A program made the position numbers and the translations under genes. The notes under the pieces were generated by a model. The model saw only the letters and a program-made list of their open reading frames with translations, ran no database searches and was not told the DNA's origin. This document shows, piece by piece, positions 3,274-34,985 of a DNA stretch of 64,000 bases (position 1 is the first letter of the stretch; every line of letters begins with the position of its first letter). The stretch is from Chrysomallon squamiferum (lineage: Eukaryota; Animalia; Mollusca), in NCBI GenBank assembly GCA_012295275.1, contig CM022672.1, positions 23,808,001-23,872,000 on the forward strand. The letters are read 5' to 3'.

Positions 3274-34985
<31,712 letters not shown>

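What the first reader, a model, noticed from the sequence alone, without database searches (positions are those of the whole stretch)
31060..31074. IDE pseudo-peptidase: zinc motif HFCEH replaced by HFCGR in an otherwise preserved 28-exon gene
Seen: CAT TTC TGT GGA CGC = H-F-C-G-R, within [24 protein letters not shown]. Known: inverzincins need HxxEH (human His108, catalytic Glu111, His112) plus a distal Glu, which is kept here (IVSENEKN). Both the catalytic base and one zinc ligand are lost. Yet the exons have no internal stops and keep canonical splice sites despite heavy divergence. Inference: a maintained, non-catalytic IDE paralog (chaperone, scaffold or regulator of active IDE). I do not know of a description of such a gene but cannot search.
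Basis: partly seen in the sequence, partly recalled or inferred. Interest (0 to 1): 0.8.

Follow-up and report, generated by a model that had tools for sequence, protein, structure and literature searches.

The report
Snail insulin-degrading enzyme without active site
A snail related to the vent snail Gigantopelta carries a second, fast-evolving copy of the insulin-degrading enzyme gene whose zinc-binding site is broken (HFCGR instead of HFCEH) while the rest of the 28-exon gene is largely preserved, so it is likely a working but non-cutting protein, predicted to hold peptides rather than destroy them.

Summary
Confirmed: minus strand 31060-31074 reads HFCGR, and read contigs from two studies agree. 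The gene is the orthologue of a divergent Gigantopelta aegis IDE copy (53% identity, tree support 100/100, same MEGF9-SCYL3-IDE gene order). That copy keeps HFCEH and has a canonical IDE on the same contig, so the loss is lineage-specific. F115L, F820N and R824K also changed. Contig arithmetic places one extra base there in reads, so it is likely an assembly error. The branch is about three times longer than Gigantopelta's, yet its substitutions are more conservative than neutral (p<0.002), and neutral decay of that depth should have broken the frame. The syntenic scaly-foot snail gene is 4.7-fold mantle-enriched in a published supplement; its motif and the window's species are untested. Best reading: a maintained, relaxed pseudopeptidase, likely a peptide-holding chamber. 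Dead M16 proteins are known (alpha-MPP, Cryptosporidium), and I saw degenerate IDE copies in a wasp, an ant and a nematode. The scan had not noted this gene before.

The parts
3274..34985 (-). IDE-like gene, 28 coding exons, 1078 aa when read through the exon-14 break; a 5' non-coding exon is likely (AG acceptor 10 bases before the ATG)
31060..31074 (-). HFCGR in place of H108-F-C-E111-H112 (E111G, H112R), followed by M113I and F115L
30128..30151 (-). Helix with retained E182 and E189 equivalents
   Evidence: coordinates counted from the exon 5 frame
28132..28146 (-). Remodelled domain-2 exosite, HLLEH(K): G339E, E341K
24993..25057 (-). Stretch of exon 14 that lacks one base in the window (frameshift); read contigs appear to carry it
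   Evidence: inferred by arithmetic
10174..10201 (-). R/Y loop: F820N, L823F, R824K and a one-residue deletion; Y831 kept in the next exon
34872..34985 (-). coding exon 1 (charged N-terminal extension)
31578..31752 (-). exon 2
31009..31112 (-). exon 3 (motif exon; the only copy in the window)
30493..30596 (-). exon 4
30034..30203 (-). exon 5
29342..29458 (-). exon 6 (an alternative acceptor at 29464 scores equally)
28639..28751 (-). exon 7
28324..28413 (-). exon 8
28092..28164 (-). exon 9
26834..26926 (-). exon 10
26515..26606 (-). exon 11
25789..25869 (-). exon 12
25397..25500 (-). exon 13
24984..25085 (-). exon 14 (one base short as assembled)
22520..22615 (-). exon 15
20864..20890 (-). exon 16 (27-base exon)
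20563..20645 (-). exon 17
19786..19930 (-). exon 18
17547..17657 (-). exon 19
16674..16794 (-). exon 20
13581..13672 (-). exon 21
10870..10981 (-). exon 22
10174..10335 (-). exon 23
9325..9449 (-). exon 24
8069..8216 (-). exon 25
5488..5549 (-). exon 26
4558..4854 (-). exon 27, with a charged insertion of roughly 50 aa shared with the Gigantopelta paralog and absent from canonical IDE
3274..3396 (-). exon 28: keeps the C-terminal FKRxLxLYP segment; ends in NSI, without the SKL/AKL ending of canonical IDEs
40935..48755 (-). SCYL3-like neighbour (synteny marker; ends approximate)
   Evidence: weak Pkinase hit, E 0.013
55964..59550 (-). MEGF9-like neighbour (synteny marker; ends approximate)
   Evidence: laminin-EGF hits

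Best explanation
This is a duplicate of the insulin-degrading enzyme gene whose zinc motif changed from HFCEH to HFCGR, likely after the split from Gigantopelta, and which likely still makes a folded, cytosolic, non-cutting protein that is predicted to bind and hold peptides or partner proteins in its clamshell chamber. Shown: the motif, the orthology and gene order, the secondary active-site changes, the remodelled exosite, and the absence of a signal-like N-terminus or SKL-type end. Inferred steps: (1) a local duplication left canonical IDE doing the proteolysis; (2) the copy changed its substrate-binding surfaces while still carrying HFCEH, the state seen in Gigantopelta; (3) catalysis was then lost and constraint relaxed, but selection kept the frame and the fold; (4) the protein works as a holdase, like human IDE E111Q, with a ligand range unlike IDE's. 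About 0.8 for 'maintained and non-catalytic'; the holdase role is the likeliest single function, which gives the lower confidence below.
For: E111 and H112 are invariant in 79 of 79 canonical IDEs. E111Q alone makes IDE almost inert yet leaves 'dead-end chaperone' activity (PMC10604886 section 3.1). The window protein and Gigantopelta P0001 form one clade, 100/100, stem 1.21. Gene order matches. F115L, F820N, R824K and T220F occur only in the window copy, not in P0001. For 131 window-only changes, mean BLOSUM62 is +0.37 against -0.51 simulated neutral (p 0.0005), with 1 change to proline against 8-9 expected. 30 of 37 changes at conserved hydrophobic sites stay hydrophobic against 20-21 expected (p<=0.002). 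Changes are rarer at >=90% than at <70% conserved sites, 45/190 vs 53/148, p 0.016. An intact frame plus splice sites after 5% neutral divergence has P about 1.6e-6 without indels (5% is my conservative reading of the excess change). GC3 is 0.43 vs 0.30 in introns. 1 of 16 listed read differences lies in exons (378 of 1341 bases), and it is synonymous, p 0.052. The syntenic Chrysomallon gene CsqKR_Scaf19_39.23 is mantle-high (918 vs 203, FC 4.68, FDR 9e-9).
Against: The branch is 0.82 vs 0.26 for Gigantopelta. At >=90% conserved sites there are 45 window-only vs 12 Gigantopelta-only changes, and still 32 vs 12 outside the two active-site stretches, so relaxation is protein-wide. Active-site enrichment is not significant: 5/11 vs 40/179, p 0.09; scan p 0.4-0.8. 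The exosite that IDE is reported to use to trap peptides is altered (G339E, E341K, G362T), which weakens a direct analogy with E111Q. The window carries a frameshift, and its repair in reads is inferred from runs of one study. One non-synonymous read difference (N to K, 22547) lies in exon 15. The Chrysomallon gene's motif was not seen and the window's species was not established.
Confidence: 0.45

Rival explanations
1. The dead copy is a regulatory or scaffold subunit: it would heterodimerise with the neighbouring active IDE, or share its partners, and tune its activity.
For: IDE dimerises through domains 3-4 and a terminal strand (PMC10604886 section 3.1). The C-terminal FKRxLxLYP segment is kept. 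Domain 3 shows no excess change (4 vs 4). The two genes are neighbours in Gigantopelta and, by gene number, in Chrysomallon. Alpha-MPP (HxxDR) is a precedent for a dead partner.
Against: The C-terminal half is only 36% identical to canonical Gigantopelta IDE and carries a long insertion before the terminal segment. The canonical Chrysomallon gene 39.24 was not among the rows shown for the mantle-high or Kairei-high lists.
Confidence: 0.22
2. The gene is a redundant duplicate on its way out: weakly constrained, still transcribed, without a real function, and the exon-14 frameshift may be a true null allele.
For: Three-fold longer branch and protein-wide excess change. Changes at near-invariant sites such as W495S and Y496S. 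A frameshift in the window.
Against: Substitutions are far more conservative than neutral. At most one disabling change where 13 or more are expected at 5% neutral divergence. Reads appear to restore the frame. The syntenic Chrysomallon gene is tissue-biased.
Confidence: 0.15
3. The protein is maintained for another non-proteolytic role unrelated to peptide holding, such as proteasome binding or a structural job in mantle cells.
For: IDE has reported non-catalytic proteasome and heat-shock roles. The remodelled exosite and new insertion suggest new partners.
Against: No partner data; retention of N139, E182, E189, N193 and Y831 inside the chamber fits a chamber still in use.
Confidence: 0.13
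4. The protein keeps some peptidase activity through a rebuilt metal site, either H108/E189 plus water or the new HLLEH in domain 2.
For: H108, E182, E189 and Y831 are kept. G339E creates an HxxEH string in domain 2.
Against: The same domain-2 string occurs in 3 other proteins of 276 that keep an intact domain-1 motif, so it looks like a recurrent exosite change. By my alignment by eye, it sits one helical turn off the register of the vestigial domain-2 site. No general base remains in domain 1.
Confidence: 0.05

Closest known systems
Insulin-degrading enzyme (insulysin, MEROPS M16A; human PDB 2G47)
   Same: Full four-domain chain; about 37-41% identity to canonical animal IDEs; H108, N139, E182, E189, Y831 kept.
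   Different: E111G, H112R, F115L, F820N, R824K; altered exosite; charged insertion; no SKL/AKL end.
Gigantopelta aegis IDE-like XP_041370738.1 (P0001)
   Same: Orthologue: 53% identity, same insertion, same altered exosite region, same neighbours.
   Different: Keeps HFCEH, F115, F820 and R824, so it is predicted active; its branch is a third as long.
M16B non-peptidase subunits (alpha-MPP HxxDR; yeast core I)
   Same: Dead M16 protein kept beside an active one; alpha-MPP also has Arg at the second His position (PMC11266112 table; PMC12731061).
   Different: Those are half-size subunits of an obligate heterodimer; this is a full-length single chain in which neither half has an intact domain-1 site.
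Cryptosporidium insulinase-like (INS) family
   Same: Duplicated M16 genes; 10 of 22 carry HXXEH (PMC8092296).
   Different: A protist expansion with secreted members; here one intron-rich, predicted cytosolic animal copy with an intact orthologue for comparison.
Engineered human IDE E111Q ('dead-end chaperone')
   Same: No general base; predicted to enclose peptides without cutting.
   Different: E111Q keeps zinc ligands and the exosite; the snail copy has changed both.
Degenerate IDE-like records in Leptopilina (CLCQH), Dinoponera (HLCQH), Steinernema (NLCKK)
   Same: Animal IDE-like proteins without an intact motif.
   Different: Different substitutions, presumably independent; automatic annotations, not tested here.

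Membership tests
IDE / M16A family (by descent) | Four-domain pitrilysin-type chain homologous to IDE over its whole length | tested here: met
   39-41% identity over 900-1030 aa to mollusc IDEs; nested among mollusc IDEs
Active M16 peptidase | HxxEH with catalytic Glu and two His ligands | tested here: not met
   HFCGR
Active M16 peptidase | Distal Glu ligand (E189) | tested here: met
Active M16 peptidase | R/Y pair in domain 4 | tested here: not met
   R824K with a one-residue loop deletion; Y831 kept
Active M16 peptidase | Zinc binding and peptide cleavage | not testable with these tools
   needs an assay
Pseudopeptidase (non-peptidase homologue) | Active-site residues replaced by residues not seen in active members | tested here: met
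   G and R at positions invariant in 79 of 79; definition in PMC3625958
Pseudopeptidase (non-peptidase homologue) | Intact reading frame | tested here: inconclusive
   One-base break in the window; reads appear to restore it
Pseudopeptidase (non-peptidase homologue) | Purifying selection on the protein | tested here: met
   Amino-acid proxies only; no dN/dS, as no orthologous coding DNA was available
Pseudopeptidase (non-peptidase homologue) | Expressed as RNA and protein | tested here: inconclusive
   Published RNA data for the syntenic Chrysomallon gene; not tied to this sequence; no protein data
Pseudogene | Accumulated stops, frameshifts, lost splice sites; neutral change | tested here: not met
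   0 in-exon stops, 27 of 27 GT-AG introns, one probable assembly indel; conservative changes
Mutually exclusive exon switch (active/dead exon) | A second copy of the motif exon with HxxEH | tested here: not met
   Best scan score 122 at exon 3, next 17

The most novel reading that the evidence does not exclude
The lineage switched off a duplicated IDE and co-opted it as a mantle- and scale-enriched peptide-holding protein that serves armour formation or metal and heat stress at vents. The syntenic scaly-foot snail gene is mantle-high and about 3-fold higher in the iron-sulfide-coated population. With the intact Gigantopelta orthologue, this would be a natural before-and-after pair for IDE's non-proteolytic function.
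Probability: 0.12. Interest if true: 0.75.

Novelty: new member of a known kind. Interest (0 to 1): 0.47.

Why it matters
Whether IDE's non-proteolytic roles matter in vivo is open, and much of the evidence comes from engineered mutants. A naturally dead full-length IDE, kept by selection, with an intact orthologue and a canonical paralog for comparison, makes that question testable. It also corrects an annotation: the gene would be labelled an enzyme, and the assembly break would truncate its model.

Tried and rejected
No whole genome is held for this window, so the canonical IDE of this species was not seen; no tblastn hit of P0018 lay outside the known exons (20 HSPs). No RNA holder listed; this is no evidence on expression. 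Runs X7 and X10 did not cover the motif; X3 and X4 barely covered exon 14. A homologue search with the motif exon scored none of 39 candidates (weak). A metagenome scan with exon 5 gave 424 pattern matches and none confirmed. RNA editing was rejected: restoring GAA CAC from GGA CGC needs G-to-A, and the change is in DNA. An alternative motif exon was rejected, as was a micro-exon mending the exon 14/15 phase. No upstream coding exon like P0001's first 20 residues was found. Active-site clustering tests were not significant. The position of the paralog clade within molluscs is unresolved; no AU test was run. The published pair scores (677 vs 2160) are not on the same scale as my bit scores and were not used beyond rank. 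PMC2866327 gave no hits for residue names.

Full report
Observation. Window 31060-31074 on the minus strand is CAT TTC TGT GGA CGC, HFCGR. It aligns with the HFCEH of human and rat IDE structures. Of four runs laid, two cover the site: X1 (study P1) and X3 (study P2). Each spans 29990-31330 in one contig without gaps and shows no listed difference at the motif; one mismatch per run is not placed in the table. The motif is therefore not an assembly error. 127 of 128 homologues carry HxxEH where aligned (the others are a gapped and a misaligned fragment), and E111 and H112 are invariant in 79 of 79 canonical IDEs.

Gene. Using the best hit, Gigantopelta aegis XP_041370738.1 (P0001), I found 28 coding exons from 34985 to 3274, with GT-AG at all 27 introns and no stop inside an exon's frame. 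One junction fails: exon 14 ends in phase 2 and exon 15 starts in phase 0, there is no micro-exon between them, and the frame as assembled stops after 529 residues. In one search, X1's contig over 24925-25087 has five extra letters, four of them intronic. X2 and X4 show no gap over 24974-24989/92, X1's next contig shows none over 25058-25225, and two X2 contigs are clipped at 24992. The fifth letter therefore most likely lies in 24993-25057, inside exon 14, which would restore the frame. The row itself was cut from the table, so this is inference from runs of one study. Several other one-base indels are shared by three of four runs against the window, which fits assembly error, though a private null allele is not excluded.

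Relatives. The 1078-aa model is 53% identical to P0001 and 39-41% to canonical mollusc IDEs, including Gigantopelta's second gene P0018. The window protein and P0001 form a clade (100/100, stem 1.21; terminal branches 0.82 and 0.26) whose place within molluscs is unresolved. No other member of this clade appeared among 120 listed of 227 hits (only 7990 candidates were scored) or the best 150 representatives. P0001 keeps HFCEH. In the Gigantopelta annotation (PMC7895826, supplement rows) one contig carries DHPS, MEGF9, SCYL3 and an IDE (ctg920-3.8 to 3.11), and a second IDE with KEGG K01408 (ctg920-6.26). The window has MEGF9-like, SCYL3-like and IDE-like genes in that order. I infer 3.11 = P0001 and 6.26 = P0018. 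So this is a local duplicate, and catalysis was lost after the split from Gigantopelta. PMC7736800 (passages) dates the Gigantopelta-Chrysomallon split at about 66 My.

Anatomy (human numbering through P0018). Window-only changes: E111G, H112R, M113I, F115L, T220F, G339E, Y496S, F820N, L823F, R824K and a one-residue deletion in the R/Y loop. Changed in both paralogs: W199, E341, F834, a charged C-terminal insertion, and loss of the SKL/AKL end. Kept: H108, N139, T142, E182, E189, N193, Y831 and the C-terminal FKRxLxLYP segment. There is no hydrophobic signal-like or membrane segment. Residue roles come from PMC12731061 (sections 3 and 4.1), PMC10604886 (section 3.1 and passages), and passages of PMC4580987 and PMC8869475. 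The numbering of the exosite residues and the meaning of SKL as a peroxisomal signal are recalled.

Maintained or dying? For maintenance: 131 window-only substitutions average BLOSUM62 +0.37 against -0.51 under neutral simulation (p 0.0005), with 1 proline against 8-9 expected; 30 of 37 at conserved hydrophobic sites stay hydrophobic against 20-21 expected. Change is rarer at highly conserved sites (45/190 vs 53/148, p 0.016). About 266 stop- or splice-breaking sites give P(intact) near 1.6e-6 at 5% neutral divergence, less than the excess change implies. 1 of 16 listed read differences is exonic, and it is silent (p 0.052). Against: the excess change is protein-wide (45 vs 12 at conserved sites; 32 vs 12 outside the active-site stretches), active-site enrichment is not significant (p 0.09; scan p 0.4-0.8), and one N-to-K difference appears in exon 15. 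The fair reading is relaxed but real constraint. These are amino-acid proxies; dN/dS could not be computed.

Expression. The published synteny table pairs ctg920-3.11 with Chrysomallon CsqKR_Scaf19_39.23, 3.10 (SCYL3) with 39.22, and the canonical 6.26 with 39.24. In PMC7142155's supplements, 39.23 is one of about 1,190 mantle-high genes (918 vs 203, FC 4.68, FDR 9e-9). It is also one of about 210 genes in the Kairei-versus-Solitaire table (scale FC 3.36, FDR 0.04; mantle FC 2.74, FDR 0.009). The main text does not contain the word insulin. A five-residue repeat unit listed for 39.22 occurs in the window's SCYL3-like gene, which supports orthology of the neighbourhood but does not fix the species. 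The window is not Gigantopelta aegis; the scaly-foot snail or a near relative is likely but untested, and I have not seen 39.23's sequence. The expression data are therefore indirect, and membership in such long lists is weak evidence of a role in armour.

Mechanism. Without a general base and with Arg at a zinc-ligand position, cleavage is very unlikely (established chemistry; E111Q alone suffices). Arg there may fill the vacated metal site against the retained E182 and E189, as alpha-MPP's HxxDR suggests (inference). The retained chamber residues and fold favour a cytosolic peptide-holding protein with changed specificity (0.45). Rivals are a heterodimeric regulator of the neighbouring IDE (0.22), a decaying duplicate (0.15), another scaffold role (0.13) and residual activity (0.05).

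Comparison with what is known. Dead M16 proteins are established: alpha-MPP and core proteins, and 12 of 22 Cryptosporidium INS genes lack HXXEH. Among 146 new representatives, 3 animal proteins had degenerate motifs (wasp, ant, nematode), so IDE copies appear to lose catalysis repeatedly. The pseudopeptidase review PMC11266112 names only MPP for M16 in the passages found. PMC8774118 (passages) does not mention molluscs or pseudogenes; PMC3625958 (passages) gave the definition of a non-peptidase homologue. Searches for IDE with pseudoenzyme (1 unrelated paper), Gigantopelta (0), mollusc duplication (1 unrelated), Chrysomallon (0), peltospirid + insulin (0) and catalytically inactive paralog (0) found no description of this gene. 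The library lacks most subscription papers, and one large supplement PDF of PMC7895826 could not be read. Earlier scan notes had nothing on this gene.

Verdict. A real, lineage-specific IDE pseudopeptidase candidate; a new member of a known kind; interest 0.47. It is useful mainly as a natural intact/dead orthologue pair with a possible mantle link.

Noticed in passing
window 28132-28146 (-): G339E creates a new HxxEH string (HLLEH) in the domain-2 exosite helix of the same protein that lost its true motif. The string also occurs in 3 of 276 other proteins with intact domain-1 motifs, so it is probably a recurrent exosite change.
   Followed up: partly
window 31060-31065 (-): Both inactivating changes can be single A-to-G transitions (GAA to GGA, CAC to CGC), fixed in DNA; common RNA editing cannot reverse them.
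   Followed up: partly
window 22495-25225: Read contigs differ from the window at many intronic sites (35 in about 1275 bases for one X2 contig) and share several one-base indels against it; the window's sequence is error-prone or the species is highly polymorphic.
   Followed up: partly
P0237 (Leptopilina XP_051155398.1), P0131 (Dinoponera), P0238 (Steinernema): Other animal IDE-like proteins with broken motifs; the wasp protein also has the E339/K341 exosite pattern seen here.
   Followed up: no
P0042/P0053 (scallops), P0028/P0034 (oysters): Long-branch IDE paralogs in bivalves with intact motifs, suggesting repeated IDE duplication and divergence in molluscs.
   Followed up: no
window 29458-29464 (-): Two acceptors six bases apart at exon 6 score equally; possible two-residue splice variant.
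   Followed up: no
window 33135-33414 and 23760-24321: GC-richer stretches (about 0.42-0.52) inside introns 1 and 14 with open frames; no Pfam hit for the one tested (33158-33355); possibly repeat or transposon remnants.
   Followed up: no
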